Source: Candidatus Omnitrophota bacterium
Lineage (GTDB): Bacteria; Omnitrophota; Gorgyraeia; Gygaellales; Profunditerraquicolaceae
Assembly (NCBI GenBank): GCA_030691865.1
Contig: JAUYDL010000029.1
Coordinates: forward strand, 4,721-68,720
Reading direction: 5' to 3'
DNA length: 64,000 nt
Shown here: positions 4,724-25,090 of the stretch, in pieces
Position numbering within the stretch: the first letter of the stretch is position 1
How the letters are laid out: each line of letters opens with the position of its first letter
Notes under the pieces: generated by a model
The model's input: the letters and a program-made list of their open reading frames with translations, nothing else
What the model was told of the DNA's origin: nothing
Database searches by the model: none
Translations under genes and position numbers: made by a program

Positions 4724-4780
4724 AAAGGGGACGGTTCTATTTTTTGAAACAAAAAATGAGCAAAAAATAGAACCGTCCCC
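4724..4780. repeat. REP/MITE-like palindromic element, copy 1. It probably acts as an intrinsic terminator after etfA.
   Basis: AAAGGGGACGGTTCTATTTTTT-loop-AAAAATAGAACCGTCCCC, with T/A runs on both sides. It abuts the etfA stop at 4789. Confidence 0.8.
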
Positions 4781-4788
4781 ATTATTTT

Positions 4789-5991
4789 TTATTTACGGAA
4801 AGCTACTTTGAAAGCTTGAGTTAAAGCAGGAATGACCTGAAAAAGATCACCGACAATCCCATAAGTGGCTACCTTAAAAATCGGGGCTTCGGGATCTTTA
4901 TTAATCGCCACAATAATCTTTGAGGATTGCATGCCTACAAGATGTTGAATCTGGCCGCTTATTCCGCAGGCAAAATAAATCTTAGGGCCCACCGTGCGTC
5001 CGGTCTGGCCGACCTGATGTGAATAAGGTATCCATCCGGCGTCAACTGCCGCGCGGCTGGAACCAATTGCTGCCCCTAAAACATGGGCCAAATCTTCTAA
5101 TAGTTTAAAATTTTCCGGCCCACCCATTCCGCGGCCTCCGGAAACAATAATATCTGCTTCGGATAAATTTACCGTAGACTCAATCTCTTCAATAATATCT
5201 AAGAGCTTAGTCCGCGAAAAATAAAGCGCTTGATCAAAACTTTCTTTAATAATTTTCCCCTTTCGTTTTTTATCCGCTGCCATCGGCGCAAATACTTTAT
5301 GCCTGACGGTAGCCATTTGCGGACGGTAAATCGGAGAAATAATTGTCGCCATGATATTGCCGCCGAAAGCCGGGCGTGTCTGCAATAAAATCTTTTTATC
5401 CGGGTCAATATCCAGGCCCGTACAGTCTGCGGTTAAGCCGGCTTTGATATTGATCGCCACGCGCGAAATCAGGGATCGGCCGATATTGGTGGCACCACAC
5501 AAGAAAATCTCAGGCTTATACTTCTTGACCAACTCCACTAAAATATTAGTATAGGGCTCATCCTGAAAATTGGCTAGCTCTGGAGCTTCCACCAGATAAA
5601 TATTATCCGCTCCGCAAAAAATCAGCTCATCTAACTGGTCTTCTAATTTATTGCCAATCAGAACTCCGCTGACGTTAGTATTTAATTTTTTCGCCAACTC
5701 CTGGGCCTTGCCTAATAATTCGTACGAAACCGATTGCACCCGGCTATTTTTCTGCTCGATAAAAACCCAAATTCCCCTATAATCTTCTACACAGGAATTT
5801 GGTGCTGCCGTCTCTAACTTCTCTAGCAGCACCGCGTTAAATATACAGGCATCTTGGCAAGCGCCGCAAAGAGTACATTTTTGTAAATCAATTACCGCCT
5901 TCTTGTCCATCATTCGGATGGCATCAAACGGGCAGGCCTTTACGCAAAGAGTGCAACCCGTACATTTCTCAATAATAATGGAAATCGGCAT
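4789..5991 (-). CDS. etfA: Electron transfer flavoprotein alpha subunit with an N-terminal 2x[4Fe-4S] ferredoxin domain (FixB-like).
   Basis: The N-terminus holds CTGCTLCVKACP and CTLCGACQDAC cysteine clusters. The ETF alpha FAD-binding C-terminus follows (...GISGQIQHLVGMQSSKIIVAINKDPEAPIF). Confidence 0.85.
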   Translation of the reverse strand: MPISIIIEKCTGCTLCVKACPFDAIRMMDKKAVIDLQKCTLCGACQDACIFNAVLLEKLETAAPNSCVEDYRGIWVFIEQKNSRVQSVSYELLGKAQELAKKLNTNVSGVLIGNKLEDQLDELIFCGADNIYLVEAPELANFQDEPYTNILVELVKKYKPEIFLCGATNIGRSLISRVAINIKAGLTADCTGLDIDPDKKILLQTRPAFGGNIMATIISPIYRPQMATVRHKVFAPMAADKKRKGKIIKESFDQALYFSRTKLLDIIEEIESTVNLSEADIIVSGGRGMGGPENFKLLEDLAHVLGAAIGSSRAAVDAGWIPYSHQVGQTGRTVGPKIYFACGISGQIQHLVGMQSSKIIVAINKDPEAPIFKVATYGIVGDLFQVIPALTQAFKVAFRK

Positions 5992-5993
5992 CT

Positions 5994-6776
5994 TTAATTA
6001 ACCTCGTCTTTGATCAACTCCACCAGCTGCTTAGTAATATCAGAAATCTCGCCCTTAAGTATCTGGCCACCGACTCTGGGCGTAGGAGTAAAAATTTTTA
6101 CAACCTGAGTAGGCGAACCACACAGCCCAATCTGTTGCGGGTCTAACCGTAACTCCTTTTGGGTAAGCGTAGTAATCTTAGCCGACTTTGCGCGCATTAA
6201 ACCTCTTAATGAAGGAATCCTGGGTTCATTAATCTCTTTGACTACGGTCAAAAGCGCAGGAAGCGAAGTCTGGATAATTTCAAAGCCTTCTTCCATCATC
6301 CTCTCTACACGCATTATCTTATCGGTTGCTTCTTCTATTTTCTTGACATAAGTTACCTGCGGGATATTCAAATGCGTGGATATTCCCGGACCAACCTGCG
6401 CTGTATCTCCGTCTGAAGCCTGCTTGCCGCAAATAATCAAATCAAACTCGCCCAGTTTTTTAATCGCGCCGGCCAAAGTATAGCTGGTTGCCCAGGTATC
6501 ACTTCCGGCAAAAGCACGGTCACAAACTAAATATCCTTCATCAGCCCCCAGGGAAATTGCTTCGCGCAAAGCGCTATCCGCTTGCGGCGGCCCCATTGTC
6601 AGAACAGAAACCTTACCCCCGAATCTTTCCTTAAGCCGGATAGCCTCTTCAATGGCATACATATCAAAAGGATTGATAATCGACTTAACCCCTTCGCGTA
6701 TCAGCGTATTGGTTTCAGGATTGATTCTTACTTCGGTAGTCTCAGGAACTTGTTTGATACAAACGATAATATGCAT
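5994..6776 (-). CDS. etfB: Electron transfer flavoprotein beta subunit.
   Basis: MHIIVCIKQVPETTEVRINPETNTLIREGVKSIINPFDMYAIEEAIRLKE is the classic EtfB N-terminus. Confidence 0.85.
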   Translation of the reverse strand: MHIIVCIKQVPETTEVRINPETNTLIREGVKSIINPFDMYAIEEAIRLKERFGGKVSVLTMGPPQADSALREAISLGADEGYLVCDRAFAGSDTWATSYTLAGAIKKLGEFDLIICGKQASDGDTAQVGPGISTHLNIPQVTYVKKIEEATDKIMRVERMMEEGFEIIQTSLPALLTVVKEINEPRIPSLRGLMRAKSAKITTLTQKELRLDPQQIGLCGSPTQVVKIFTPTPRVGGQILKGEISDITKQLVELIKDEVN

Positions 6777-6795
6777 AGATCCTTCGTCGTTCTTC

Positions 6796-6829
6796 GGGGA
6801 CGGTTCTCTTAAAAAAGAGAACCGTCCCC
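6796..6829. repeat. REP-like element, copy 2, a short-loop variant lying between bcd and etfB.
   Basis: GGGGACGGTTCTCTTAAAAAAGAGAACCGTCCCC, located inside the bcd-etfBA gene string. Confidence 0.75.
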
Positions 6830-6834
6830 TGATT

Positions 6835-7986: not shown

Positions 7987-8085
7987 CTCTCCTCCTCATT
8001 GTTAAACCCTAAATTCTAAACTCTTCCCGCTAAAGCAGGAAGGGTTTCGAGTTTAGGGTTTAAATTTTAACATATAAATTTGTTT

Positions 8086-8535
8086 TTACAAGGATTTTAA
8101 CAGCGCAATCTCTTGGCAGTTGGGGAATTTACAACAGTTAATGCACTCCGCCCAAATCTTATGCGGGAGAGCCTCATGCTTAATCTTTTTAAAACCTATT
8201 TTTTTAAAAAAATCCGGCTTATAAGTGAGCACAAAGATCTTTTTTGCCCCCATCAGGCGAGCTTCGGCAAGACAGGCCGAAACCAAATCATGCCCCAAAC
8301 CCTTTCCTTGCTTATTTTTAGCAACGGCTAAAGACTTAATCTCCGCTAAATCATCCCAGGAAATATGCAAGGCAGCGCAGCCGGATATCTTGCCCCTATC
8401 TTCATAAACCCAAAAATCGCGGATATTCTCATAAAGCTCATTGAGCGAACGCGGCAACATCACATCCTGCTTGGCAAAATAGCCAATCAGCTCTTGAATT
8501 TGTTTAATATCTTTTATTCTGGCTTTTCGGATCAT
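8086..8535 (-). CDS. GNAT-family N-acetyltransferase (small, ArgA-like).
   Basis: 149 aa with the GNAT core ...AVAKNKQGKGLGHDLV.... It overlaps the glgC start by 4 nt. Confidence 0.6.
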   Translation of the reverse strand: MIRKARIKDIKQIQELIGYFAKQDVMLPRSLNELYENIRDFWVYEDRGKISGCAALHISWDDLAEIKSLAVAKNKQGKGLGHDLVSACLAEARLMGAKKIFVLTYKPDFFKKIGFKKIKHEALPHKIWAECINCCKFPNCQEIALLKSL

Positions 8536-9755
8536 TTGATTTCCGTGCCTTTGGCCACCACAACAATTCCCGATTCACTGACAAAAAACTTCTTCTTATC
8601 TTCTTCCAAATTAAAACCAATAACCATTCCCTGCGGTATACTCACATCTTTATCAATAATCGCCCGTTTAATTTTAGCGTGCCTGCCTACATTAACACTC
8701 TCCATTAAAATTGAATCATAGACCTCAGAGAAACTATTGATCCGGACATTCGGTGACAGTATGGAACGCTGCACCCGGCCGCCGGAAACTACGCAACCCT
8801 CCGAAACTATGGAATCAAGCACCAACCCCACCCTTCCTTCTTCTTTCTCTCCGGAGTGCACTGTTTTTACCGGAGGATACTGTTCCTGGAAGGTTCGAAT
8901 TAACCACTCCTGATCATAAAGATTAAACGTAGGATTAACCTGGATTAACTCCATATTTGCCTCGTAATAAGCATCAATGGTCCCGATATCCCGCCAATAC
9001 TCCTGGCTCTTATCCTTATTACGAAAATTATAAGCCGAGATCTTCATCCCTTTTTTTAACATCTGCGGGATAATATCTTTGCCAAAATCATGCGAGGATT
9101 TGCTATTCTTAGCATCCTCCAATAATTCCTGCATTAGTACCTTCTGATTAAATACATAAATCCCCATTGAGCCAAAAATCTTATCCGGTTTTCCGGGAAT
9201 AGTTTTAGGATTTGCCGGCTTTTCCTGAAAACCGGTAACCCGGCCCTGAGCATCTGCATCCACCACGCCCAGATGTTTAGATTTAGACTTATCGATCTCA
9301 ACCACCCCCACCGTCAGATCCGCGTTTTGCTCACGGTGCACATCGATCATAGAATAATAATTCATTTTATAGATATGGTCGCCGGCTAAAATCAAAACCT
9401 CATCCGGACGGTCCATTTCTAAAGTATAAAGATTCTGATAAATCGCATCCGCAGTGCCCATGTACCAGGAATCTCCGATACGCTGCTGCGCGGGAAGCAG
9501 CTCGATAAACTGGCCTAGTTCCGAAGGAAGAAAATTCCAACCCAAACGGATATGTTTTTGCAAGGAAGCGGATTTATACTGGGTAAGGATATAAATCTTG
9601 CGCATCCCTGAATTAATACAGTTACTTAAAGTAAAATCAATAATCCGGTAAATGCCCCCAAAAGGAACTGCAGACTTAGTGCGGTCTTTGGTTAAAGGCA
9701 ACAGCCGCTCGCCTTTTCCACCGGCCATAATAAAGGTTAAAACTTTACGCATCAT
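8532..9755 (-). CDS. glgC: Glucose-1-phosphate adenylyltransferase.
   Basis: The N-terminus reads LTFIMAGGKGERLLPLTKDRTKSAVPFGGIYRIIDFTLSNCINSG. Confidence 0.85.
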   Translation of the reverse strand: MMRKVLTFIMAGGKGERLLPLTKDRTKSAVPFGGIYRIIDFTLSNCINSGMRKIYILTQYKSASLQKHIRLGWNFLPSELGQFIELLPAQQRIGDSWYMGTADAIYQNLYTLEMDRPDEVLILAGDHIYKMNYYSMIDVHREQNADLTVGVVEIDKSKSKHLGVVDADAQGRVTGFQEKPANPKTIPGKPDKIFGSMGIYVFNQKVLMQELLEDAKNSKSSHDFGKDIIPQMLKKGMKISAYNFRNKDKSQEYWRDIGTIDAYYEANMELIQVNPTFNLYDQEWLIRTFQEQYPPVKTVHSGEKEEGRVGLVLDSIVSEGCVVSGGRVQRSILSPNVRINSFSEVYDSILMESVNVGRHAKIKRAIIDKDVSIPQGMVIGFNLEEDKKKFFVSESGIVVVAKGTEIK

Positions 9756-10351: not shown

Positions 10352-10409
10352 AATTTATTATTATATAGAATAGTCAGTAAAATGGCAATAGAAAAAATCG
10401 ATTTAAAAT

Positions 10410-10457
10410 AAAGGGGACGGTTCTATTTTCCGTATTAAAATAGAACCGTCCCCTTTT
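10410..10457. repeat. REP-like element, copy 3.
   Basis: AAAGGGGACGGTTCTATTTTCCGTATTAAAATAGAACCGTCCCCTTTT, lying between the MFS stop and the marC start. Confidence 0.8.
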
Positions 10458-10460
10458 ATT

Positions 10461-11606
10461 CTATTCAATCTTATTAATGAGGAATAAGCAAAGAAAGCTG
10501 GTTAATGCGGATAAGACTATCAACCATTTTAAGCCCACCAGAGGAAGTAGGAATGCGCCGGATAAATTACTGCTTACTCCGGCTAAATTATTTATACTAC
10601 ATAAAAGCGCAAATGAAGTTGCCTCTAACCCGCGAACCGAGTGGCGGGCCATAAAATCCATAACCATCAAAAATATAAACATCCCCAAGAAACTATAAAC
10701 CACATCATAAGCTACTGCGGTTACCGGAGTATAATATAGGTAACTTAAGGTAGTTAATCCTCCCAAAAACACTGAATAATACAGCCACTTCTTAATATTT
10801 ATCTTTTGGCTAAATTTGTAATAAAGTAATGCCCCAATAACCCCAAACACCGTGCTAATCGTGCCTAATGTCCCGATCCACATCTTGCCCCATTTAAAAC
10901 TATCCCGCTGAATAAAAAATAACGGGGTGCCAAAAGATGGAGAGTATTTATACAAAAATATAAATAAACCGATAATCAATATTTTCTTATCACTAAAAAG
11001 TCTTTTTAGGTCCGTAAACAAGGTTGAATGCTTCTTCTCTGTTTTTTCTTCTTGATAAAAATACGCCGGCAGGCCAACCAATAAATAAATCGGAACCAAA
11101 CATAAGAAACCTACTTGATAACCCCATTTCTGGGCGATAAAAGCTCCGCCGATTCCGGTAAATAACCCGGCAATTAAAATTGAAATCCATTGAATGCTCT
11201 GAATCTTCCCGGTGGCCTGGTATTTCTTGCCTTCCACGCACATAATTCCATCAACCGCCACATCACGAAAAGCGGCATTGCCGGAACTAATGATCAGTAA
11301 TGCCACCAAGATAAAAAGCGGCAGATGCATTAAACCTAAAAATAAAACAAAAATTATATCCAGCGCTAAAGAAATAAATATCCAGGCTCGTTTACTAAAT
11401 AAATTATCGATAAGATAACCAATCAACGGCTTAACCAGCCAGGCAAAGGTAGTCAGGCTGCCGATAAGCATGATTTTTTCAGGAGAAAAATTCAGGGTCT
11501 CTTTAAGATAATAAAATAACCCTTGGGCCGGCAGGCCTTCTATGCCTTGCGTAAAATAAACCGCGCTACTTAGAGCAAATATCCAAAATAGTTTTTTATT
11601 CTTCAT
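10461..11606 (-). CDS. MFS-type transporter, folate-biopterin (BT1)-like.
   Basis: 381 aa with about 12 transmembrane segments. The N-terminal region resembles BT1-family transporters. Confidence 0.5.
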   Translation of the reverse strand: MKNKKLFWIFALSSAVYFTQGIEGLPAQGLFYYLKETLNFSPEKIMLIGSLTTFAWLVKPLIGYLIDNLFSKRAWIFISLALDIIFVLFLGLMHLPLFILVALLIISSGNAAFRDVAVDGIMCVEGKKYQATGKIQSIQWISILIAGLFTGIGGAFIAQKWGYQVGFLCLVPIYLLVGLPAYFYQEEKTEKKHSTLFTDLKRLFSDKKILIIGLFIFLYKYSPSFGTPLFFIQRDSFKWGKMWIGTLGTISTVFGVIGALLYYKFSQKINIKKWLYYSVFLGGLTTLSYLYYTPVTAVAYDVVYSFLGMFIFLMVMDFMARHSVRGLEATSFALLCSINNLAGVSSNLSGAFLLPLVGLKWLIVLSALTSFLCLFLINKIE

Positions 11607-11615
11607 ATTAAAAAT

Positions 11616-11675
11616 AAAGGGGACGGTTCTATTTTTCCTGCGTCCATTTCTAGAAAAATAGAACCGTCCCCTTTT
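11616..11675. repeat. REP-like element, copy 4. It probably terminates the gap-pgk-tpiA-secG operon.
   Basis: AAAGGGGACGGTTCTATTTTT-CCTGCGTCCATTTCTAG-AAAAATAGAACCGTCCCCTTTT, 9 nt downstream of the secG stop. Confidence 0.8.
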
Positions 11676-11683
11676 ATTTAATT

Positions 11684-11998
11684 TTATTGAACTCCTGCTG
11701 CATCCGGTTTAACTGTTTCTGCTGGCAAGATTACTGCGGGCTTTGCAGTACGCACATCGCGCATTAATGACTTACTCTGCTTAACCGATAAAACTGCCAA
11801 AGCTAAACAAGTTATGAAGAAAACAACCGACATAATCGTGGTTATACGCGTAAGAAAAACACTGGTCTTGGTTCCAAACATCGACTCTACCCCGGCAAAA
11901 CTTTCTACTAAGCCGGCGCCTCTTCCGCGCTGAATTAAAACTAATCCGATTAAAACTACACAAGCAGTCACATGAATTATAATCAAAAATGTCATCAT
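11684..11998 (-). CDS. secG: Preprotein translocase subunit SecG.
   Basis: 104 aa with LIGLVLIQRGRGAGLVESFAGVESMFGTKTSVFLTRIT. It sits directly downstream of tpiA, the conserved tpiA-secG arrangement. Confidence 0.75.
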   Translation of the reverse strand: MMTFLIIIHVTACVVLIGLVLIQRGRGAGLVESFAGVESMFGTKTSVFLTRITTIMSVVFFITCLALAVLSVKQSKSLMRDVRTAKPAVILPAETVKPDAAGVQ

Positions 11999-12762: not shown

Positions 12763-13955
12763 TTGTCCGTAAGCGCGGCAATCCCGGGTAAAGTTTTACC
12801 CTCCAAGAACTCCAGGCTTGCCCCTCCTCCAGTTGAAATATGCGACATCTTATCTTCTAAATTAAATTTAGCAATCGCGGCTGCCGTATCCCCTCCGCCG
12901 ATTATCGAAGTAGCCTTTAGGCCTGAGATAAATTTAGCCACCTCCAGCGTCCCTTTGCTAAAAGCATCCATCTCAAAAATTCCTAAAGGCCCGTTCCAAA
13001 CAATGGTTTTAGCCAAACTTAATTTATCTTCAAATAACTTAATTGTCTTAGGCCCGATATCCACGGCGATTTTACCGGCCGGTATATCAGGACCCACTAT
13101 TTCGGTTTTAGCCGCCGGATCAATATTATCCACCACTACGTGGTCAATAGGTAAAAGAATCGCTTTATTTAATTTTTTAGCTTGCTCTAAAATCGATCTA
13201 GCTAAATCTAGCTTTTCTTTTTCCAGCCGAGAATTGCCAATCTCTATGCCTTGGCTTTTTAGAAAAGTATAGGCCATACCACCGCCGACAATAATCGCAT
13301 CACACTTAGGAAGCAGATTTTGAATAACCCCGATTTTATCCGATACCTTGGCTCCACCTAAAATAACCATAAACGGTTTTTGGGGATTACTAACCGCGCC
13401 ACCTAAATATTTAATCTCTTTCTCTAAAAGAAATCCCGCGGCAGATTTTAAGAAATGCGTAACACCTTCGCAAGAAGCATGCGCCCGATGCGCCGTACCA
13501 AAAGCATCATTAACAAAAATATCCGCCAAGCTAGCTAACTTTTTGGCAAAATTTGCATCATTTGCTTCTTCTTCGGCGTGGAAACGTAAATTCTCCAGCA
13601 AAATTACTTTTTTTTTAGAATTATCGATTTCCTGTTTGATACTATCGCCAACACAATCATTAAGAAATAATACATCCTGCCCGAGCAGCTCTTTTAAACG
13701 CGCGGCTACCGGTTTGAGGCTGTATTTAGCCACCGCTTTGCCATCCGGCCGGCCTAAATGGCTCATAATTACTAATTTTTTGGCCCCCTTCTTTAAAATA
13801 TATTTTAAAGTAGGCACCGTTGAGCGAATGCGCGTGTCATCAGTAATATTAAGGTTGGCATCCTGCGGCACATTAAAATCCGCCCGCACTAATACTGTCT
13901 TGTTTTTTAAATCGATATCTTTTAAGGTTAATTTCGCCATCTCTTCTTCTTCCAC
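12759..13955 (-). CDS. pgk: Phosphoglycerate kinase.
   Basis: VLVRADFNVP... MSHLGRP... AVSNPQKPFMVILGGAKVSDKIGVI... WNGPLGIFE. Confidence 0.9.
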   Translation of the reverse strand: MEEEEMAKLTLKDIDLKNKTVLVRADFNVPQDANLNITDDTRIRSTVPTLKYILKKGAKKLVIMSHLGRPDGKAVAKYSLKPVAARLKELLGQDVLFLNDCVGDSIKQEIDNSKKKVILLENLRFHAEEEANDANFAKKLASLADIFVNDAFGTAHRAHASCEGVTHFLKSAAGFLLEKEIKYLGGAVSNPQKPFMVILGGAKVSDKIGVIQNLLPKCDAIIVGGGMAYTFLKSQGIEIGNSRLEKEKLDLARSILEQAKKLNKAILLPIDHVVVDNIDPAAKTEIVGPDIPAGKIAVDIGPKTIKLFEDKLSLAKTIVWNGPLGIFEMDAFSKGTLEVAKFISGLKATSIIGGGDTAAAIAKFNLEDKMSHISTGGGASLEFLEGKTLPGIAALTDK

Positions 13956-14028
13956 AAGGAGGACACCCGCGCAATACCAATCAGCGCGGGGTGCCTTTCC
14001 GAATATTTAAGCTACAATTGACTAAACC

Positions 14029-17224: not shown

Positions 17225-17225
17225 A

Positions 17226-17262
17226 GAAAGTAATTATAACAGAACTCCTAAAAGTTGCAACA
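17226..17262 (-). promoter_or_regulatory. Sigma70-like promoter TTGCAA-N16-TATAAT, ending 8 nt before the ATG of the GalT paralog. It may give a leaderless or near-leaderless transcript.
   Basis: The minus strand reads TTGCAACTTTTAGGAGTTCTGTTATAATTACTTTCTATG. No Shine-Dalgarno is visible. Confidence 0.3.
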
Positions 17263-17358
17263 AGTTTATAACATCCCGTCATTGCGCGAAACGAAGCGAC
17301 CGAGGGCGAAATGCCCGAGGAAGTGCCGAGCCCATCCGGGCGAGGCCAATCTCGTAAA

Positions 17359-18393
17359 CTATTTATTTTTCCTTAATAGGCGTTTAGCGGCTTTCCGCTC
17401 AATCATTTTTACCGAGCGATCAAAATCGCTGTCTTTTGCATCGCAGGCTTTGATCCTTTTGAGATTAAATTTATCATATTGTACTTCCGCATGCCCAAGC
17501 GCAAGCTCATGAGATATCTTGCCTGCATGAGCGAGAATTTCCCGCTCATTAAGCGACAAAAATCCGTCAAGCTTTTTAATCCAGTCCTTCATATACATGG
17601 GGGTACGGCGCATCGCCTGGCCTTCGGCGAAAATCAGATATTGCTCTACGAGATTGTTGAGCGCCAAAAGTTCTTGTCCATAAAGATAATTCTTCGCGAT
17701 GGCGACATCGTGTTTGCGAACTTTAGCGCCTCGCCAGCTGGTAAGCCCCATGTTCGTCTTTGAGCTGTCAGCGCGTTCGCGTATAATTTCCGCGGCTGTT
17801 TTGCCACTGATTGCCCAATGCATTTTATTCTGCACCGTTTTAAAGAAGTCAATGCTGATTTCCAATGCAGGATTGTAATCTACGCTAGTAGCATAAATGT
17901 CCGTTATCTTCTGATAGAACCGGCGCTCGGAGGTACGAATATCCTGAATACGCCGGACAACCTCATCAAAATAATCAAAGGGTTGATCGGGATTTTTAAG
18001 CCGTTCGTCATCAAGCACAAAACCTTTTACAATATATTCCCGCAAATGCTGGGTTGCCCATTGACGAAACCGCGTGGCGATATGTGATTTAACACGATAT
18101 CCAACAGAAATAATCACATCAAGATTATAATATTCAATTTTTCTTTTGACCGGCCGCGTACCTTCTATTTGAACTGTCAAGAATTCCTTGACAGTTGCCT
18201 TAGGTATTAATTCTCCTTCTTCGTAAATATTTTTAACATGGACGCTGATGTTCTGCTTAGTAGTCTGAAATAGTTCCGCCATCAACTGCTGAGTCAGCCA
18301 GACCGTCTCATTTTGAAAACGAACATCAATTTTAATTTTTCCGTCTTCAGTCTGATAAATTATCAACTCGGACTTATTTTCTTTATTTTCCAC
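17359..18393 (-). CDS. RhuM-family (virulence-protein RhuM-like) protein.
   Basis: The N-terminus reads IIYQTEDGKIKIDVRFQNETVWLTQQLMAELFQTTKQNISVHVKNIYEEGEL, characteristic of the RhuM family. Confidence 0.6.
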   Translation of the reverse strand: MENKENKSELIIYQTEDGKIKIDVRFQNETVWLTQQLMAELFQTTKQNISVHVKNIYEEGELIPKATVKEFLTVQIEGTRPVKRKIEYYNLDVIISVGYRVKSHIATRFRQWATQHLREYIVKGFVLDDERLKNPDQPFDYFDEVVRRIQDIRTSERRFYQKITDIYATSVDYNPALEISIDFFKTVQNKMHWAISGKTAAEIIRERADSSKTNMGLTSWRGAKVRKHDVAIAKNYLYGQELLALNNLVEQYLIFAEGQAMRRTPMYMKDWIKKLDGFLSLNEREILAHAGKISHELALGHAEVQYDKFNLKRIKACDAKDSDFDRSVKMIERKAAKRLLRKNK

Positions 18394-18513
18394 TGGTTAA
18401 CTCCTTTTCTAACTTTTCAAGAAGTTATCTTTCATCTAGTTTGCCATAACCTTAGATTGCTTCGCCCCGCCTGCGGCGTGGCCCGCAATGACCGGAACCC
18501 GCAATGATGCAAA

Positions 18514-19458
18514 CTATTTATTCTTCCCTAAAATTTCACCTGCGGCAAGCTTATGCCCGATAATAAAATTCTGTGCCGACATACGCTTTCCCGCTTCCAG
18601 CTGCAGCTCTTTAATTTCTAAAAAACCTCTTGCGCAAGCCACAACAATACCATGCTTGTCCGCCCTGATCACTTCACCAACTGAAGGCTTATGGCTAGGG
18701 AATATCGGTAGGACTTGCGCCTGAAATATCTTAAGCAACTTCTTGCGATAACTGGTAAATGCCCCCGGCCAGGGGATAACCCCTTTTATCTGGTTATGAA
18801 TATTCACGGCAGAAGTATCCCAATCAATTAAACCGATCTCTTTTTTCATCTTTGGGGCATAGACAACCTTATCTTCATCTTGTTCCACCAAACGATAATC
18901 CCGGTTATCAATAATCACCAACACCTCCATTAAAAGCTGGGCTCCGCATTGACTCAGTTTCTCTTCTAAACTAACCGCAGTATCCCGATCTTCGATTTTT
19001 ATTTCCTTCTGCATAATTACCGGGCCGGAATCCATCTTTAGAGTTACATAGATAATCGTAATCCCGGTTTTCTTTTCCCCATTAATTATCGCCCAGTTAA
19101 TCGGAGCCGCCCCCCGGTAACGCGGCAGAAGCGAAGCGTGGATATTAATCGGCATAATCTTGGGAATATCTAAGATCTCTTGAGACAATATCTGGCCATA
19201 GGCGACGATTACAAAAAGATCCGCATCCAGGCTCTTTAAAAATTTTACGCTTTCTTTACTATTGATATTTTCCGGCTGAAAAGTTTTAAGCCCGGCGGCA
19301 ATAGCCGTGTTTTTAACATCGGTAGCCGCTAACTGTAAATGCCGGCCTTTCTGTTTATCCGGCTGGGTAACCACACAGGCCAACTCATGCTGGCTTTTAA
19401 TTAAAACCTCAAGAACCGAAACACCAAAATGTGCACTTCCGAAGAATATTATTTTCAT
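18514..19458 (-). CDS. fmt: Methionyl-tRNA formyltransferase.
   Basis: MKIIFFGSAHFGV... NIHASLLPRYRGAAPINWAIINGEKKTGITI. Confidence 0.85.
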   Translation of the reverse strand: MKIIFFGSAHFGVSVLEVLIKSQHELACVVTQPDKQKGRHLQLAATDVKNTAIAAGLKTFQPENINSKESVKFLKSLDADLFVIVAYGQILSQEILDIPKIMPINIHASLLPRYRGAAPINWAIINGEKKTGITIIYVTLKMDSGPVIMQKEIKIEDRDTAVSLEEKLSQCGAQLLMEVLVIIDNRDYRLVEQDEDKVVYAPKMKKEIGLIDWDTSAVNIHNQIKGVIPWPGAFTSYRKKLLKIFQAQVLPIFPSHKPSVGEVIRADKHGIVVACARGFLEIKELQLEAGKRMSAQNFIIGHKLAAGEILGKNK

Positions 19459-19459
19459 C

Positions 19460-21304
19460 TTAGATAGGGTCTACATCCACCGTCACTATTATACCTGAAA
19501 AATGCCCTTCTTTTAAGTGTAATTTTAAAAAATGGCTGGCTTTCTCTACGTTAGGCGCGCGCATTAATATCTGATAATAAAAATTCTCCCGCAATTTAGC
19601 CGGTTGCCCGGGATTAAGGGAGAGCATTTTTATACTGCTTGTCTTAATCTTATTTAATTTTTCAAATAAATCACAAGCAGACTGCTTAACCTTTTCCAAA
19701 CTTTCCCCTCTTAATCTAACCAGGATCATATGTTTAAAAGGTGCAAAGTTTAGCTGTTTGCGTTGTTTTAATTCCTCTTTATAAAACAACCTTGAATCAT
19801 TCTTAATCAAAGCCTGAAAGCAATGATGGTTAACATTAGCGCTTTGAATAATTATCGACTTAGATGTTAAACTAACTAACCCCATCAGCAGATTAAAAGT
19901 TTTCTCAGCAGCGCGAAAATCCACCCGGTTAAGCGAATTATCTATCGCCAAAACCCCTATTAAATCAAAATTTATTTCCTGGTGTTTAATTACCGAGCTG
20001 GTAGCAACAAAAATATCCACATTCATACGCGCCTGTGGGAAAATTCTCGCCAGTTCGCTTTCTACCTTTTCTGTGCCGATACCTGAATATTTAATATAAC
20101 CGGCATTACAATGTGGACAGATTTTAGGCACCGGCATTTTAAAATTGCAATGATGACATTTTAATTTATCATCATCAAAATGAAATACCAGATTAATATT
20201 GCAGCGCGGACATTTCAAAGCCACCTGGCAATTATGACAAGCAACCGTGGTAGCAAAACCTTTGCGATTAATCACCAATAAGACCTTACCTTTTTCAGCC
20301 AGGGCCATCTGTATCGCATCCAGCAAAAACTTTGAAAACATGGATTTGTTTTTTCTTTCCGCATAAGCCAGCCGGCGCACATCGATAACCTTAACAAGCG
20401 GGTAAGCCAGTTTTGAAGGAATAACTTCAAGATCCAGTTTACCTTTTTGCAACAGATAAAAACTTTCCAAAGATAAACAATGACTGCCCAGAATAACTCC
20501 TGAACCCTGAATCTGTGCGCGCATCAATCCAACTTCCCGGGCATGATAATGCGGAACCTGCTCCTGCTTATAAACCTGATCCTCTTCTTGGTCGATAATC
20601 ATCAACCCCAGATTATTCACGCAAGAGAAAATACTTGAGCGCGTACCGGCCACCACGCAGTAATCTGCTTGTCTGATTTTTTCCCAAATCTCCAGTTCAT
20701 TAGGCTGTTTGCGGAAGGAGATAAAAACTTCTTTCCCCAAACTCTTCTCCAATTTCTCTTTTACCCTTTCCACTGCTGCGATATTACTGCACAGAATAAT
20801 TACCGACTTTTTAGCCGCCAGAACTTTCTTAATCTCCCTTAGGTAAACCGGTATTCGGTCAAACCCCTGAACAAAAAGGGGACGTTTCCCTTTCTCAAGA
20901 GAAAGGGGACGGTTCTCTTTTTCTGAAACCTTATTAAGAGAACCGTCCCCCTGATTTAAGTCTTTCCCCTTCCTCAACTCATCCGGTAACGCCGCTTCAA
21001 TTGCCTCTCCCCAGGAACAACAATAATATTCCGCCAGCTCCTTAGTCAACTGAAGCATCGAATCATCCAAGATCGGGAATAAATCAATAACCGAGATAAT
21101 CTCTTTTAATTTTTTGATTTTAGTTTTATTATTTAATTCTACTACGTAGGCAACTTCTTTTTTGTTGCGGAAATTTACCCAAACTCTTGCTCCAATGTTA
21201 ACTTTGGCTTCCAGGCCCACCGGAACAAGGTAATCAAACGGGCCATCAATCGGCAGGCCCAACACCACATTAGCGTATAACACTAGCCAACTCCTTACAA
21301 GCAA
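19460..21304 (-). CDS. priA: Primosomal protein N' (PriA) homolog with degenerate helicase motifs and an in-frame REP-derived insertion.
   Basis: The N-terminal domain (GLPIDGPFDYLVP) and the Cys4 zinc fingers (CHNCQVALKCPRC... CHHCNFKMPVPKICPHC) match PriA. Where GVTGSGKTEVYL is expected it reads GFDRIPVYL. DEEH is replaced by DQEE, SAT by SHC, and QVAGRAGR by GLVSLTSK. Confidence 0.8.
   Translation of the reverse strand: MLVRSWLVLYANVVLGLPIDGPFDYLVPVGLEAKVNIGARVWVNFRNKKEVAYVVELNNKTKIKKLKEIISVIDLFPILDDSMLQLTKELAEYYCCSWGEAIEAALPDELRKGKDLNQGDGSLNKVSEKENRPLSLEKGKRPLFVQGFDRIPVYLREIKKVLAAKKSVIILCSNIAAVERVKEKLEKSLGKEVFISFRKQPNELEIWEKIRQADYCVVAGTRSSIFSCVNNLGLMIIDQEEDQVYKQEQVPHYHAREVGLMRAQIQGSGVILGSHCLSLESFYLLQKGKLDLEVIPSKLAYPLVKVIDVRRLAYAERKNKSMFSKFLLDAIQMALAEKGKVLLVINRKGFATTVACHNCQVALKCPRCNINLVFHFDDDKLKCHHCNFKMPVPKICPHCNAGYIKYSGIGTEKVESELARIFPQARMNVDIFVATSSVIKHQEINFDLIGVLAIDNSLNRVDFRAAEKTFNLLMGLVSLTSKSIIIQSANVNHHCFQALIKNDSRLFYKEELKQRKQLNFAPFKHMILVRLRGESLEKVKQSACDLFEKLNKIKTSSIKMLSLNPGQPAKLRENFYYQILMRAPNVEKASHFLKLHLKEGHFSGIIVTVDVDPI
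20875..20951. repeat. REP-like element, copy 5, inserted in-frame inside priA.
   Basis: GGGGACGTTTCCCTTTCTCAAGAGAAAGGGGACGGTTCTCTTTTTCTGAAACCTTATTAAGAGAACCGTCCCCC. It encodes ...GDGSLNKVSEKENRPLSLEKGKRPL..., which is absent from canonical PriA. Confidence 0.7.
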
Positions 21305-22361: not shown

Positions 22362-22380
22362 AATCTTACCTGTTGAAATA

Positions 22381-22435
22381 AAAGGGGACGGTTCTATTTT
22401 TACCGAGTCGAGTTCTAGAAAAATAGAACCGTCCC
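22381..22435. repeat. REP-like element, copy 6.
   Basis: AAAGGGGACGGTTCTATTTTTACCGAGTCGAGTTCTAGAAAAATAGAACCGTCCCC. Confidence 0.8.
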
Positions 22436-22438
22436 CAT

Positions 22439-22981
22439 TTATTTTTTAATCAGAAATTCCGCTGCTGCCAGGAGATCTTTAAACACAAAATCCGGCTTTG
22501 CTTCCCAGTTCTTTTGATTAGATAATTTCTCTTTGCCGGAAAGAATAAGAACGGATTTAGCGCCCACGGCATGAGCAGTCAGCACATCGCGTATAGTGTC
22601 ACCCACAAAATATGCTTCTTTTAGGTTAACCTTAAATTCCCGCGCGGCTTTCTTAAGCAAACCCGGTTTGGGCTTGCGGCAGCTACAGCATGCCTCTTTG
22701 CGATGCGTACAATAATAAACTTTAGTAATTTTGCCGCCTGCTTGCTCAATATCCTCAAGCATCTTAGTAGTTATGCTATCTAAGGTCTTTTGAGCGTAAG
22801 CCCCTTTACCTACTCCTGCCTGATTGGAAGCCACAAAAATTTTATACCCTGCCTTACTCAACAATGCAATTGCTTGCTTTGCACGCGGCAGAAACCTAAA
22901 CTTCCTGAGCGAAGTTACATACAATCTATCGCCAGGATATTTGTTTATTACACCGTCTCTATCTAGAAACACAATCTTCAT
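22439..22981 (-). CDS. gmhB: D-glycero-D-manno-heptose 1,7-bisphosphate phosphatase (HAD-IIIA).
   Basis: MKIVFLDRDGVIN... and CxCRKPKPGLL, with the HAD motifs. Confidence 0.75.
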   Translation of the reverse strand: MKIVFLDRDGVINKYPGDRLYVTSLRKFRFLPRAKQAIALLSKAGYKIFVASNQAGVGKGAYAQKTLDSITTKMLEDIEQAGGKITKVYYCTHRKEACCSCRKPKPGLLKKAAREFKVNLKEAYFVGDTIRDVLTAHAVGAKSVLILSGKEKLSNQKNWEAKPDFVFKDLLAAAEFLIKK

Positions 22982-23065
22982 AGTTCTATAATTTTACTCA
23001 GTTAACGGGTGACTTGGGTATTTTCGAAGCGCGTCAGCGCTAGAAAATACCCAAGACAGGCCCCG

Positions 23066-23821: not shown

Positions 23822-23841
23822 TAACTTTCTCCTTGATAAAT

Positions 23842-23895
23842 GGGGACGGTTCTATTTTTCTAGAACTCATTTGCGGAAAAAATAGAACCGTCCCC
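23842..23895. repeat. REP-like element, copy 7, with its loop in inverted orientation.
   Basis: GGGGACGGTTCTATTTTTCTAGAACTCATTTGCGGAAAAAATAGAACCGTCCCC. The loop is the reverse complement of the loop in copies 4, 6 and 8. Confidence 0.8.
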
Positions 23896-23897
23896 AT

Positions 23898-25019
23898 TTA
23901 TTTAAACTCCTTCACAGATTGGATAATATAATCTTTTTCTTCGCCGGTTAAATCCGGATAAATAGGTAAAGTAAATGTCTGTTTTGCCGCCTTCTCAGCT
24001 TGCGGAAAATCACCGGCCTTATATCCTAAGTATTTAAAACATTTCTGCAGATGCAAGGGAACCGGATAAAATATGCGAGAGTCAATACCTTTTGCCTGCA
24101 GATGCTCCACAAAGGCCTTATTTGAAACTGGCGCCCTTAAAGTATACTGATGATAAATATGCGTGGAGTAAACAGGCACAATTGGCAACTTAATATCCAG
24201 CCCGGCTAAATTCCTATTATAATACTGAGCAACTTGTTGTCTGGACTTATTCCAAAGGTCTAAATATTTTAACTTGATATCAAGTACGGCCGCCTGAATG
24301 GTATCCATGCGATTATTGCGGCCCAAAACCAAATGATAATATTTATTTTTATTCCCCTGATTACGCAAAATCTTTAGTTTTTCAGCAACAGCTTTATTAT
24401 TCGTCAAAACTAACCCCGCATCGCCAAAAGCTCCCAGATTCTTACCCGGATAAAAACTCACTGCCCCGCAATCGCCCATAGTGCCGGCTTTCTTACCCTG
24501 ATATTCCGCCCCAAATGCCTGCGCCGTATCCTCAACAACTTTAATTTTATGCTTACGCGTCAGCTTTAAAATCCCATCCATATCCGCGCACGCTCCATAA
24601 AGATGCACCGGGATAATCGCCTTAATCTTAAACGGCATGCGCCGATTCTTCCTGCTTAATATCCTCTCTATACTTTTAAGTGAAATATTATAAGTATCTT
24701 CATCAATATCCGCAAAAACCGGCCGCGCCCCGATATTGGCCACTGCACCTGCCGTAGCATAATAAGTAAATGCCGGGCAAATTACCCCGTCCCCGGCTTT
24801 AATCCCCAACGCCAGCAAGGACAAGCTTATCGCGTCAGTACCGTTAGAGACCCCAATGGCATATTTTGCACCGGAATATTCAACAACATGCCGCTCAAAT
24901 TTATCCACCCCGGCTCCCAATATAAAACTCGTATTGTCAATTACCTCTTTAATTGCCGCATCTAACTCCTGGCGAATTGGCGCAATTTGTTTCTTAAGAT
25001 CTAACGCAGATATTTTCAT
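23898..25019 (-). CDS. DegT/DnrJ/EryC1/StrS-family PLP-dependent sugar aminotransferase.
   Basis: 373 aa with an AAT-I fold and a Lys-containing motif. The closest family resemblance is to ArnB/PseC/perosamine-synthetase-type enzymes. Confidence 0.8.
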   Translation of the reverse strand: MKISALDLKKQIAPIRQELDAAIKEVIDNTSFILGAGVDKFERHVVEYSGAKYAIGVSNGTDAISLSLLALGIKAGDGVICPAFTYYATAGAVANIGARPVFADIDEDTYNISLKSIERILSRKNRRMPFKIKAIIPVHLYGACADMDGILKLTRKHKIKVVEDTAQAFGAEYQGKKAGTMGDCGAVSFYPGKNLGAFGDAGLVLTNNKAVAEKLKILRNQGNKNKYYHLVLGRNNRMDTIQAAVLDIKLKYLDLWNKSRQQVAQYYNRNLAGLDIKLPIVPVYSTHIYHQYTLRAPVSNKAFVEHLQAKGIDSRIFYPVPLHLQKCFKYLGYKAGDFPQAEKAAKQTFTLPIYPDLTGEEKDYIIQSVKEFK

Positions 25020-25033
25020 CTTTCTCCTGCAAT

Positions 25034-25090
25034 AAAAGGGGACGGTTCTATTTTTCCCGAGTCCAGTTCTAGAAAAATAGAACCGTCCCC
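25034..25090. repeat. REP-like element, copy 8.
   Basis: AAAAGGGGACGGTTCTATTTTTCCCGAGTCCAGTTCTAGAAAAATAGAACCGTCCCC. Confidence 0.8.

What the first reader, a model, noticed from the sequence alone, without database searches (positions are those of the whole stretch)
4724..25090. Family of long-stem palindromic REP/MITE-like elements filling the intergenic gaps, with the loop in both orientations
Eight copies of AAAGGGGACGGTTCTATTTTT-(loop)-AAAAATAGAACCGTCCCCTTT were found. They lie at 4724, 6796, 10410, 11616, 20875, 22381, 23842 and 25034, and all fall in the first 25 kb with none in the remaining 39 kb. Most sit in the 20-80 nt gaps between co-directional genes, immediately after a stop codon and before the next RBS. 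Copies 4, 6 and 8 share the loop ...CGAGTC(C/G)AGTTCTAG, whereas copy 7 carries its reverse complement (CTAGAACTCATTTGCGG). This indicates insertion in both orientations. Copies 2 and 5 share a distinct GGTTCTCTT...AAGAGAACC variant. They are flanked by T/A runs on both strands and so could act as bidirectional terminators or mRNA-stabilising hairpins.
Basis: seen in the sequence. Interest (0 to 1): 0.55.

Follow-up and report, generated by a model that had tools for sequence, protein, structure and literature searches.

The report
Mobile hairpin repeats of a RAYT transposase
The eight long hairpins are real copies of a small non-coding mobile element (a REPIN-like repeat) of a kind that, in related genomes, flanks a REP-associated tyrosine transposase gene; its 10-12-base core is the same in at least nine bacterial phyla, and one copy is translated in frame inside the replication-restart gene priA.

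Summary
There are eight palindromic elements with the core GGGGACGGTTCT...AGAACCGTCCCC at the stated places, against 0 expected by chance. All lie in the first 25 kb of a Candidatus Omnitrophota contig.

Seven sit 2-13 nt after a stop codon.

They were inserted, not inherited as terminators. At two orthologous gene junctions a related Omnitrophota genome is empty. Other junctions carry different repeat families.

Eight Y1/HUH transposase genes of the RAYT/TIRYT type are flanked by this exact core in one polarity (5'-GGGGACGGTTCT..gene..AGAACCGTCCCC-3'). They come from Omnitrophota (L249, L250, L221, L213, L244) and Firmicutes (L065, L015, L126). The window's doublets have the same polarity, so they read as transposase-less derivatives (REPINs).

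The core occurs in at least 119 genome stretches from about nine phyla. The flanked transposases are only 26-32% identical between phyla.

Each copy folds at -30 to -44 kcal/mol, and six of eight are followed by a U-run. A terminator or mRNA-stabiliser effect is therefore plausible but untested.

No transposase gene lies in the window. Verdict: a new member of a known kind (REP/REPIN and TIRYT "TIR" repeats), of moderate interest.

The parts
4720..4787 (.). Copy 1. Doublet hairpin directly after the stop of the ETF-alpha gene (4789-5991, minus strand). It is followed on the sense strand by UUUAUUU, then by a promoter-like site at 4579-4551.
   Evidence: Sense-strand RNA fold -36.9 kcal/mol, z -9.1.
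6796..6829 (.). Copy 2. Short variant (GGGGACGGTTCTCTT-AAAA-AAGAGAACCGTCCCC) between the acyl-CoA dehydrogenase and ETF-beta genes. There is no U-run on the sense strand. A U-run is present only on the antisense strand.
   Evidence: Fold -29.9 kcal/mol, z -6.9.
10394..10472 (.). Copy 3. Doublet with a 7-nt loop after the MFS/BT1 transporter gene (10461-11606). The outer A/T stem extends the palindrome to 36 nt per arm.
   Evidence: Fold -39.3 kcal/mol, z -7.5.
11611..11679 (.). Copy 4. Doublet after secG (11684-11998). Its loop belongs to the CTAGAA.. subfamily.
   Evidence: Fold -37.8 kcal/mol, z -8.8.
20873..20950 (.). Copy 5. Complete hairpin at 20905-20950 plus a degenerate third arm at 20873-20896. 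It is translated in frame as ..GDGSLNKVSEKENRPLSLEKGKRPL.. within the PriA linker.
   Evidence: Fold -44.1 kcal/mol, z -4.8.
22376..22444 (.). Copy 6. Doublet after the HAD-phosphatase gene (22439-22981). The stop codon TAA lies in the outer stem.
   Evidence: Fold -35.6 kcal/mol, z -8.2.
23836..23901 (.). Copy 7. Doublet between the DegT aminotransferase and GT2 genes, with the loop inverted relative to copies 4, 6 and 8. The orthologous junction in L120 is empty (11-nt gap). The element supplies the TAA and adds one lysine to DegT.
   Evidence: Fold -36.7 kcal/mol, z -7.5.
25031..25097 (.). Copy 8. A perfect 26-nt-arm doublet between the GT9 and DegT genes. The orthologous junction in L120 is empty (the genes overlap there).
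   Evidence: Fold -42.7 kcal/mol, z -10.5.
19460..21304 (-). priA, the host gene of copy 5. The element forms the linker between the 3'-DNA-binding domain and the (motif-I-less) helicase core.
   Evidence: Pfam hits PriA_3primeBD, Zn_ribbon_PriA and PriA_C. It is 100% identical to the NCBI Omnitrophota protein P0001. Linker comparison.

Best explanation
The eight hairpins are non-autonomous, REPIN-like mobile elements.

**Anatomy.** Each is an inverted doublet of a short unit: A/T-rich flank, core GGGGACGGTTCT, A/T-rich flank. This is the two ends of a 'REPtron/TIRtron' with the transposase gene missing.

**Mobilisation (inferred).** The cognate enzyme is a RAYT/TIRYT-type Y1 (HUH) tyrosine transposase encoded elsewhere in the genome. 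By analogy with E. coli TnpA-REP and IS200/IS605 TnpA, it would recognise the unit as a single-stranded DNA hairpin with the conserved core. It would cut and rejoin there, copying or moving the doublet without a target-site duplication.

**Where copies persist.** Copies survive where they do little harm: just after stop codons, often bringing their own TAA, and in one tolerant protein linker (PriA).

**Effect once transcribed (inferred).** Each forms a very stable hairpin. With the flanking A- and U-runs it can act as a partial, two-way transcription stop or a 3'-end protector.

**Status of the steps.**
- Shown: the repeat family, insertion polymorphism, gene-end bias, in-frame copy, and physical association and polarity with RAYT genes in related genomes.
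- Inferred: catalysis by the RAYT, single-strand mechanism, any terminator effect, and the presence of the RAYT in this particular genome.
For: 1. **Repeat family.** 14 arms against 0 expected. Eight hairpins of 15-36 nt per arm.

2. **Insertion polymorphism at orthologous sites in syntenic Omnitrophota loci**.
 - DegT>GT2 is filled in the window and empty in L120 (..GAGTTTTAAGGAGAAAATTAATG). The genes overlap in L123.
 - GT9>DegT is filled in the window and empty in L120. In L123 it is occupied by an unrelated repeat.
 - L120 has core elements at GT2>HAD and fmt>GalT where the window does not.

3. **Flanked RAYT genes.** Y1_Tnp genes (Pfam E 1e-14 to 1e-17) give their best NCBIfam hit to 'REP-associated tyrosine transposase'. 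The only PDB hit is 4ER8 TnpArep. They are flanked by the exact core in these loci:
 - L065 Oribacterium, L015 Clostridiales
 - L126 Butyrivibrio proteoclasticus
 - L221, L213, L244 and L185 (one flank seen; the contig ends at the gene's 5' end), and partial L191
 - L249 and L250, from NCBI Omnitrophota MAGs

 The polarity is always 5'-GGGGACGGTTCT..gene..AGAACCGTCCCC-3'.

4. **Enrichment.** 7 of 120 arm-selected metagenome loci (771 kb) carry a Y1 transposase homologue (5 of them flanked by the core; L131 has a different core and L229 is a degenerate fragment). Homologues of the L221 RAYT are named Omnitrophota transposases by NCBI.

5. **Doublet polarity.** In that arm-selected set there are 55 GGGG-outward pairs, 1 inward and 8 tandem.

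6. **Co-variation of core and enzyme.**
 - The L248 RAYT (72% identical to the L221 RAYT) has GGGGACGCTCCT on both sides.
 - A second paralogue in L249 has GGGGTCAGAATT.
 - L125 has GGGACAGTCCC.

7. **Gene-end bias.** 31 of 47 doublets have a stop codon of an ORF of 100 aa or more 2-60 nt upstream, against 13% of random positions. The same trend holds in 119 genome loci.

8. **Published precedent.** TIRYT genes are flanked by inverted repeats sharing GGGGWSAS. These repeats form dimers and clusters, and intragenic REPs are frequent in replication and repair genes (PMC3733652; PMC6006769).
Against: - No Y1 transposase gene lies in the 64-kb window. The rest of this MAG could not be read, so this genome may have lost it.
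- The RAYTs score below the NCBIfam equivalog cut-off (52-70 bits against 80).
- The core fits GGGGWSAS at only 7 of 8 positions, and there is no GTAG tag.
- No strain-level polymorphism was seen: L120, L121 and L122 are identical. Recent mobility is therefore not shown.
- Exact insertion boundaries and any target motif could not be fixed from two empty/filled pairs at about 80% divergence.
- No biochemical evidence exists for this RAYT clade.
Confidence: 0.8

Rival explanations
1. They are ordinary host-evolved, two-way intrinsic terminators or mRNA-stabilising hairpins. On this view their similarity comes from selection or gene conversion, not from mobility.
For: - They lie right after stop codons.
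- The stems are very stable.
- U-runs follow six of eight copies on the sense strand, with A-runs upstream.
- Copy 1 sits at a plausible operon end, before a consensus promoter.
Against: - Near-identical 12-nt cores occur at unrelated loci and in about nine phyla.
- Related genomes have empty orthologous junctions where the genes abut or overlap.
- Copy 2 has no sense-strand U-run, and copy 5 is inside a coding sequence.
- The same repeat brackets RAYT genes.
Confidence: 0.07
2. They are classical MITEs, that is, deletion derivatives of a DDE-type insertion sequence whose terminal inverted repeats begin with GGGG (for example Tn3-like).
For: They have an inverted-repeat architecture with GGGG facing outward. 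They are small and non-coding.
Against: - No direct target-site duplication is seen. The flanks are inverted, not direct.
- The palindrome continues outside the GGGG.
- The only gene found between two such ends is a Y1/HUH transposase, in eight loci. Clustering ORFs from 119 loci found no recurrent DDE transposase.
Confidence: 0.04
3. The repeats are independent of the RAYT. On this view RAYT genes are merely a preferred landing site, or the repeats serve another sequence-specific system such as a DNA-uptake signal or a protein-binding site.
For: - CGTC-type REPs are reported to lack a dedicated transposase (PMC3733652).
- The core is conserved far beyond what the divergent RAYTs would suggest.
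- Tandem arrays of core plus spacer look like iterated binding sites.
Against: - Polarity around all eight RAYT genes is constant and matches the doublets.
- Paralogous or diverged RAYTs carry correspondingly different cores on both sides.
- A species-specific uptake signal cannot be shared by nine phyla.
Confidence: 0.09

Closest known systems
REP/REPIN elements with RAYT (TnpA-REP) of Enterobacteria and Pseudomonas (Nunvar 2010; Bertels & Rainey 2011; Ton-Hoang 2012; Messing 2012, PDB 4ER8)
   Same: - Short palindromic units occur as inverted doublets that fold into long hairpins.
- They lie mostly just downstream of genes, between same-direction or convergent genes.
- A Y1/HUH transposase gene is bracketed by the same repeats.
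- There is no target duplication.
- The family profile hits only 4ER8 in the PDB.
   Different: - There is no GTAG tag. The conserved part is a 10-12-nt core (GGGACGGTTC) that tends to lie in the loop of the single unit.
- The RAYTs fall below the NCBIfam equivalog cut-off.
- The hosts are Omnitrophota, Firmicutes, Bacteroidota and others, not Gammaproteobacteria.
- The same core is shared across phyla, whereas classical REPs are species-specific.
TIRYT/TIRtron repeats (Di Nocera et al. 2013, PMC3733652), equivalent to TnpA-Y1 subclass 2.1 (Quentin et al. 2018, PMC6006769)
   Same: - The RAYT-like gene is flanked by inverted repeats that start GGGG(A/T)(C/G).
- The repeats form dimers and clusters elsewhere in the genome.
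- The protein motifs match subclass 2.1: NHVH, WQ or FQ, and YIELNP or Y(I/V)xQNP.
- A paralogue in L249 has GGGGTCAG, an exact fit.
   Different: - This core is GGGGACGG, with G instead of A at position 7.
- Copy density is high, and the doublets look like true REPINs. Quentin et al. found no REP-like sequences around subclass 2.1 genes.
- Pfam detected no C-terminal HTH in the Omnitrophota proteins.
Rickettsia palindromic elements (RPE) and intragenic REPs
   Same: The palindromic repeat is inserted in frame into a protein-coding gene without stop codons. The host gene is a replication or repair gene, as noted for intragenic REPs in PMC3733652.
   Different: There is no sequence relation to RPEs. 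Only one of the eight copies is intragenic. The PriA linker carries different core variants in different lineages.
Paired DNA-uptake sequences of Neisseria and Haemophilus that double as terminators
   Same: A conserved 10-12-mer occurs as inverted pairs just after genes.
   Different: Uptake sequences are family-specific and are not linked to a transposase. Here the motif spans about nine phyla and brackets RAYT genes. This comparison rests on my own knowledge and was not tested.

Membership tests
REP/REPIN-RAYT system | Short palindromic units repeated many times, mostly extragenic and downstream of genes. | tested here: met
   There are 8 copies in 25 kb against 0 expected. In arm-selected metagenome loci there are 211 cores in 771 kb, and 66% of doublets lie within 60 nt after a stop codon against 13% of random positions.
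REP/REPIN-RAYT system | Inverted doublets that form one long hairpin (REPIN). | tested here: met
   All 8 window copies are doublets. Fold energies are -30 to -44 kcal/mol with z -4.8 to -10.5. Pair orientation is 55 GGGG-outward against 1 inward.
REP/REPIN-RAYT system | A RAYT (Y1/HUH) gene flanked by the same repeats. | tested here: met
   This is met in related genomes, not in the window itself. The flanked loci are L249 and L250 (Omnitrophota MAGs), L221, L213, L244, L185, and L065, L015, L126. There is no Y1 gene in the 64-kb window.
REP/REPIN-RAYT system | A conserved GTAG (or CGTC) tetranucleotide tag at the unpaired 5' end of each unit. | tested here: not met
   There is no GTAG. CGTC occurs inside the core's complement (GAACCGTCCC), but not as an end tag.
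REP/REPIN-RAYT system | The protein reaches the curated RAYT model threshold. | tested here: not met
   NF047646 is the best hit at 52-70 bits, but the cut-off is 80. Pfam Y1_Tnp is passed at 52-64 bits against a cut-off of 23.
REP/REPIN-RAYT system | RAYT cleaves and rejoins single-stranded repeat DNA. | not testable with these tools
   This needs biochemistry. The HUH (NHVH) and catalytic Tyr (YIELNP) motifs are intact in all aligned proteins.
TIRYT/TIRtron (TnpA-Y1 subclass 2.1) | Protein motifs NHVH / W[EQ] or FQ / YIELNP or Y[IV]HLNP. | tested here: met
   Omnitrophota proteins show NNH(V/T)HLIV, WQGRFKS or WQDRYKS, and Y(I/V)ELNP. Firmicutes proteins show NHVH, FQDRFKS and Y(I/V)xQNP. 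The motif table is taken from PMC6006769.
TIRYT/TIRtron (TnpA-Y1 subclass 2.1) | Flanking inverted repeats contain GGGGWSAS. | tested here: inconclusive
   GGGGACGG fits 7 of 8 positions. Sister elements fit exactly, for example GGGGTCAG in L249 and GGGGACAG-type variants.
TIRYT/TIRtron (TnpA-Y1 subclass 2.1) | A C-terminal HTH-like domain. | tested here: inconclusive
   There is a weak HTH_3 hit in L065 (E 1.8e-4, below the cut-off). None was detected in the 222-225-aa Omnitrophota proteins.
Classical MITE (DDE-transposon derivative) | Direct target-site duplication and a related DDE insertion sequence. | tested here: not met
   The flanks are inverted, not direct. No recurrent DDE gene was found near 119 loci.
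Intrinsic (Rho-independent) terminator | A G+C-rich stem followed by a U-run on the transcribed strand. | tested here: inconclusive
   Six of eight copies have at least 4 U in the 8 nt after the stem on the sense strand. Copy 2 has none and copy 5 is coding. The pattern scan calls only copies 2 and 3 because the other loops exceed 8 nt. Actual termination was not tested.
RPE-like in-frame palindromic insertions | The element lies in frame within an intact ORF, adding a peptide. | tested here: met
   This holds for copy 5 only. The PriA ORF is intact and equals the NCBI protein P0001. The element encodes GDGSL..KENRPL.

The most novel reading that the evidence does not exclude
This may be one ancient RAYT-REPIN lineage whose 10-12-nt recognition core (GGGACGGTTC) has stayed fixed in at least nine phyla, while the enzyme diverged to 26-32% identity. 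That would make it a near-universal 'REP'.

The lineage also appears to overwrite pre-existing copies at fixed sites. The translated PriA linker of Omnitrophota carries, lineage by lineage, whichever core variant the local RAYT uses (GDGSIF..KIEPSP, GDAPIF..KIGASP, GTVSIF..KIETVP). This would imply RAYT-guided replacement or homing at old repeat sites, and exaptation of a repeat arm (..ENRPLFVQG) as part of an essential replication protein.
Probability: 0.3. Interest if true: 0.65.

Novelty: new member of a known kind. Interest (0 to 1): 0.45.

Why it matters
**Annotation.** The result gives a concrete explanation for the abundant intergenic hairpins in Omnitrophota, a poorly studied, mostly uncultured phylum. 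It warns annotators of three effects: stop codons, gene starts and even a protein linker can be supplied by a mobile repeat.

**Repeat families.** It links RAYT subclass 2.1 (TIRYT) to a dense REPIN-like repeat family. For that subclass, no REP-like partner was found by Quentin et al. 2018.

**DNA recognition.** Transposases only 26-32% identical are flanked by the same 12-nt core, while a 72%-identical one uses a 3-nt variant. This offers a natural experiment for working out how these enzymes read DNA.

**Experimental route.** Cultured hosts with the same core (Butyrivibrio proteoclasticus, Oribacterium sp. NK2B42, Rossellomorea, Neobacillus) make the system testable in the laboratory.

Tried and rejected
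- **Rfam.** There were no hits at gathering thresholds. At permissive thresholds only generic long-hairpin models matched (miRNA precursors, plastid 3'-UTR hairpins), all far below their thresholds.
- **Literature search for the literal core sequences.** It returned only unrelated primer matches. The core is also absent from the texts of the REP survey papers.
- **Exact-protein look-ups of window ORFs.** PriA with a TTG start and DegT both failed, probably because the called starts differ.
- **Pairs of identical hairpins 3-4 kb apart in L020 and L083.** I tested whether they bracket a mobile gene. They hold only housekeeping genes.
- **All-against-all clustering of ORFs from 119 loci.** It gave no recurrent neighbour family, as expected for dispersed repeats. 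The RAYTs were then found with a motif regex.
- **tRNA acceptor/T-arm minihelix idea.** The core is 12 bp, which equals 7+5, and contains GGTTC. I considered and dropped it because there is no T-loop and no CCA context, and the flanks are variable.
- **Other ideas considered and dropped.** 16S/23S complementarity, CsrA sites, parS, CIRCE-type operators, integron attC sites and DNA-uptake sequences all conflict with the sequence, with the housekeeping gene context, or with the cross-phylum spread. These were judged from my own knowledge and were not formally tested.
- **Viral origin.** There are only 6 matches in 2.9 million viral contigs.
- **Strain-level polymorphism.** L120, L121 and L122 are identical, as are L123 and L124.
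- **PDB search with a single RAYT.** It found nothing. Only the 24-sequence profile reached 4ER8.

Full report
**1. The observation**

Searching the window for AAAGGGGACGGTTCTATTTTT with up to three mismatches gives 14 arms on both strands and none in 100 shuffles. The inverted-repeat scan resolves them into eight hairpins:
- 4720-4787
- 6796-6829
- 10394-10472
- 11611-11679
- 20873-20950
- 22376-22444
- 23836-23901
- 25031-25097

The arms are 15-36 nt long and 79-100% complementary.

Copies 4, 6 and 8 share one loop, copy 7 has its reverse complement, and copies 2 and 5 share the CTCTT variant. There are no copies in 26-64 kb.

As sense-strand RNA the copies fold at -30 to -44 kcal/mol, with z-scores of -4.8 to -10.5 against shuffles.

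**2. Context**

All genes in the window are on the minus strand, and GC skew is negative throughout.

The first 26 kb carries housekeeping genes:
- etfBA and an acyl-CoA dehydrogenase gene
- a nucleotidyltransferase (GlmU/GlgC-like)
- secG, tpi, pgk and gap
- fmt and priA
- glycosyltransferase genes

The region 26-64 kb is a lower-GC, tightly packed polysaccharide (O-antigen-type) cluster with AbiE-type modules.

Seven copies lie directly after a stop codon. There are 13 gaps of 25 nt or more in 1-26 kb (7 filled) and 7 such gaps in 26-64 kb (0 filled). The clustering is therefore partly a matter of available space.

The window comes from a Candidatus Omnitrophota MAG. Its PriA is 100% identical to the NCBI protein P0001, which lies on a 72,997-bp contig.

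**3. One copy is inside a gene**

Copy 5 lies in frame in priA (19460-21304) and encodes ..GDGSLNKVSEKENRPLSLEKGKRPL... This segment sits between the 3'-DNA-binding domain and the helicase core.

In an alignment of 120 Omnitrophota PriA homologues this linker is hypervariable and reads as translated palindromes:
- GDGS(L/I)..ENRP or ..KIEPSP corresponds to this core.
- GDAPIF..KIGASP corresponds to the GGGGACGCTCCT variant.
- GTVSIF..KIETVP corresponds to a GGGGACAG-type variant.
- Other families are also present.

The last arm (..ENRPLFVQG) is widely shared, so it is old and now part of the protein.

**4. The copies were inserted, not inherited as terminators**

Syntenic loci from two other Omnitrophota lineages were fetched. 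L120 has a PriA 83% identical to the window's, and L123 has one 80% identical.

- DegT>GT2: the window has copy 7. L120 has an 11-nt gap (..GAGTTTTAAGGAGAAAATTAATG), and in L123 the genes overlap.
- GT9>DegT: the window has copy 8. In L120 the genes overlap, and L123 has an unrelated repeat.
- L120 has core elements at GT2>HAD and fmt>GalT where the window has other hairpins.
- At HAD>MGDG both the window and L120 have the core, but with different inner stems.

The inserted segment includes the A/T-rich outer stem and supplies the TAA. As a result DegT ends KEFK* in the window and KEF* in L120. No direct target duplication is visible.

**5. The same core in many phyla**

I ran an exact scan of one genome per species for GGGGACGGTTCT-N(8-38)-AGAACCGTCCCC. 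By my calculation fewer than one would be expected by chance in 596 Gb.

The record titles include:
- Firmicutes (Lachnospiraceae, Syntrophomonas, Neobacillus, Rossellomorea and others)
- Bacteroidota
- Actinomycetota
- Omnitrophota
- Elusimicrobiota
- Atribacterota
- Aminicenantes
- Planctomycetales
- a deltaproteobacterium

The flanks differ by lineage. Among one-mismatch neighbours, variation is confined to positions 1 and 12, so the invariant part is GGGACGGTTC.

The outer flank is often the reverse complement of the inner stem, so that each half can also fold with the core in its loop. Stems of 5 bp or more occur in 63 of 138 cases, against about 5 expected.

Some genomes have tandem arrays of core plus spacer followed by the inverted array, for example L077 (4+4), L109 (3+5) and L015 with a 21-nt period.

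Across phyla the elements again lie a few to about 40 nt after stop codons, between tandem or convergent genes.

**6. The partner gene**

[quoted passage not shown] Those repeats form dimers and clusters, and intragenic REPs are frequent in replication and repair genes (PMC3733652; PMC6006769).

*In the genome loci.* A motif search of the loci already fetched found two Y1 genes, both confirmed as Pfam Y1_Tnp:
- L065 (Oribacterium) lies between two identical hairpins.
- L015 lies between a 4x direct and a 4x inverted core array.

The Butyrivibrio proteoclasticus homologue (L126) is flanked by single units: AGTCATTT-GGGACGGTTCT-AACTGACT upstream and GGAGTCAAAT-AGAACCGTCCCC-AATGACTCC downstream.

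*In the metagenome loci.* A metagenome scan for the Omnitrophota-type arm GGGGACGGTTCTATTTTT returned 120 loci totalling 771 kb. Seven of them carry a Y1 transposase homologue. Five of those are flanked by the core:
- L221, L213 and L244 have the core on both sides.
- L185 has the core at its stop.
- L191 has the core upstream.

The other two are not: L131 belongs to a different clade and carries its own core (GGGGACGT..GTTGAC), and L229 is a degenerate fragment with no core at its ends.

The L221 downstream doublet has a loop (CTAAACCGGGCTCGGGG) close to that of window copies 4, 6 and 8. NCBI names homologues of the L221 protein as Omnitrophota transposases.

*In Omnitrophota MAGs.*
- L249 has the exact core 61 nt upstream of the RAYT gene and again at its stop.
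- L250 has the exact core upstream and a decayed copy downstream.
- L248, whose RAYT is 72% identical to that of L221, has GGGGACGCTCCT on both sides.
- A second Y1 paralogue in L249 has GGGGTCAGAATT.

*Polarity.* The polarity is the same in all eight genes with both flanks or a full array visible (5'-GGGGACGGTTCT..gene..AGAACCGTCCCC-3'), and in the single flanks seen at L185 and L191. It matches the doublets: 55 outward, 1 inward and 8 tandem in the arm-selected set.

*Protein family.*
- The proteins best match NCBIfam 'REP-associated tyrosine transposase', but below its cut-off.
- A 24-sequence profile hits only PDB 4ER8, TnpArep.
- RAYTs from Omnitrophota and Firmicutes that are flanked by the identical core are only 26-32% identical.

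**7. Mechanism**

*Shown:*
- a repeat family with insertion polymorphism
- a bias to gene ends
- an in-frame copy
- a consistent physical and polar association with RAYT/TIRYT genes
- cores that change when the enzyme changes

*Inferred from established knowledge of TnpA-REP and IS200/IS605:*
- The enzyme acts in trans on single-stranded hairpin DNA, cutting and rejoining at the core.
- The doublet is the ends of the RAYT unit without the gene.

*Host-level effect, inferred only:*
- The hairpins are very stable.
- A U-run follows the stem on the sense strand in six of eight copies, with an A-run upstream. This suggests partial, two-way termination or 3'-end protection.
- Copies 7 and 8 sit between genes that abut or overlap in a relative, and copy 2 has no sense-strand U-run. 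They therefore cannot be strong, required terminators.

**8. Comparison and novelty**

The elements behave like REPINs with a RAYT. The closest described relatives are the TIRYT 'TIR' repeats.

They fail the GTAG-tag criterion and the curated RAYT score. They fit GGGGWSAS at 7 of 8 positions. I therefore file them as a new member of that known kind and not as canonical REPs.

To my knowledge four points go beyond the cited papers:
- the Omnitrophota host
- the dense doublet population linked to a subclass-2.1-like RAYT
- the invariance of the core across phyla
- the recurrent occupation of the PriA linker

**9. Limits**

- There is no Y1 gene in the window, and the rest of the MAG could not be read.
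- The ORF-based positional statistics use stop-to-stop ORFs and overcall 'inside ORF'.
- No expression or biochemical data exist.

Noticed in passing
window 19460-21304 (priA), about aa 145-260: Omnitrophota PriA lacks the canonical helicase motif I. It reads ..LFVQGFDRIPVYL.. where GxTGSGKTEVY is expected, and its motif II is altered (DQEED). No helicase Pfam domain is detected. The feature is conserved in 120 homologues, so it is probably an ATPase-inactive but functional PriA.
   Followed up: partly
PriA homologues P0001-P0120, linker equivalent to window 20860-20965: The PriA linker carries translated palindromic repeats of at least six families or frames in different Omnitrophota lineages. 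Examples are GDGSIF..KIEPSP, GDAPIF..KIGASP, GTVSIF..KIETVP, KIDPTPI tandems, LGSALPRAGCPRS and LLAMTE/PRND. This suggests repeated replacement at one site.
   Followed up: partly
window 17225-18513: A RhuM-family gene (17359-18393) is absent from the syntenic loci L120 and L123. It is bracketed by a different repeat type containing TCATTGCG / CGCAATGA (18394-18513 and 17225-17358), so it is probably an inserted module.
   Followed up: no
window 8002-8063, 23010-23058 and 27164-27205: Three other, unrelated long palindromes lie in intergenic gaps. The first is TTAAACCCTAAATTC.. with 30-nt arms. The second is GGGTATTTTC..GAAAATACCC, at the junction where L120 carries a core element. The third is GTTAACCAACAATGTATAT with its complement.
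   Followed up: no
L123 (GCA_030693145.1), intergenic regions 6413-6465, 8865-8919, 11813-11869, 12818-13034 and 18680-18787: This related genome uses other repeat families at the same junctions. One is the palindrome TAGTAGGGTGGGTTTAAACCCACCCTACTA. Another is a roughly 50-nt unit, ATATTTGTTTTGTATCTTAAAGAG..CTGTCTAC. One core arm after the MFS gene is interrupted by the first of these, giving a nested insertion.
   Followed up: no
L249 3001-3678 and 4681-5373: Two Y1 paralogues lie 1 kb apart in one Omnitrophota genome, each with its own flanking core (GGGGACGGTTCT and GGGGTCAGAATT). Between the upstream core and the ATG they share a conserved leader, TTAGATTTT..CCTCCTTTTACGTCTATTAATAGTAGAAGGAGG, which is also seen in L250 and L221.
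   Followed up: no
L077 4808-4980, L109 1363-1650, L050 1934-2150 and L015 4450-4565 / 5710-5785: In Actinomycetota and one Clostridiales genome the core forms tandem arrays with a period of 21-46 nt, followed by the inverted array. In L077 the spacers of the two arms are not complementary, so it is the core itself that is conserved, not the hairpin.
   Followed up: partly
window 28721-29581, 31961-32656 and 26169-26849 / 31180-31971: AbiEii/AbiEi-type toxin-antitoxin genes and two NTP_transf_8 genes sit between the housekeeping block and the low-GC polysaccharide cluster. None has a core element nearby.
   Followed up: no
L125 2363-3360: A RAYT homologue lying between uvrA and a recD2-like helicase gene is flanked by repeats of GGGACAGTCCC, which is itself a palindrome. 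This illustrates a different core in the same protein clade.
   Followed up: no
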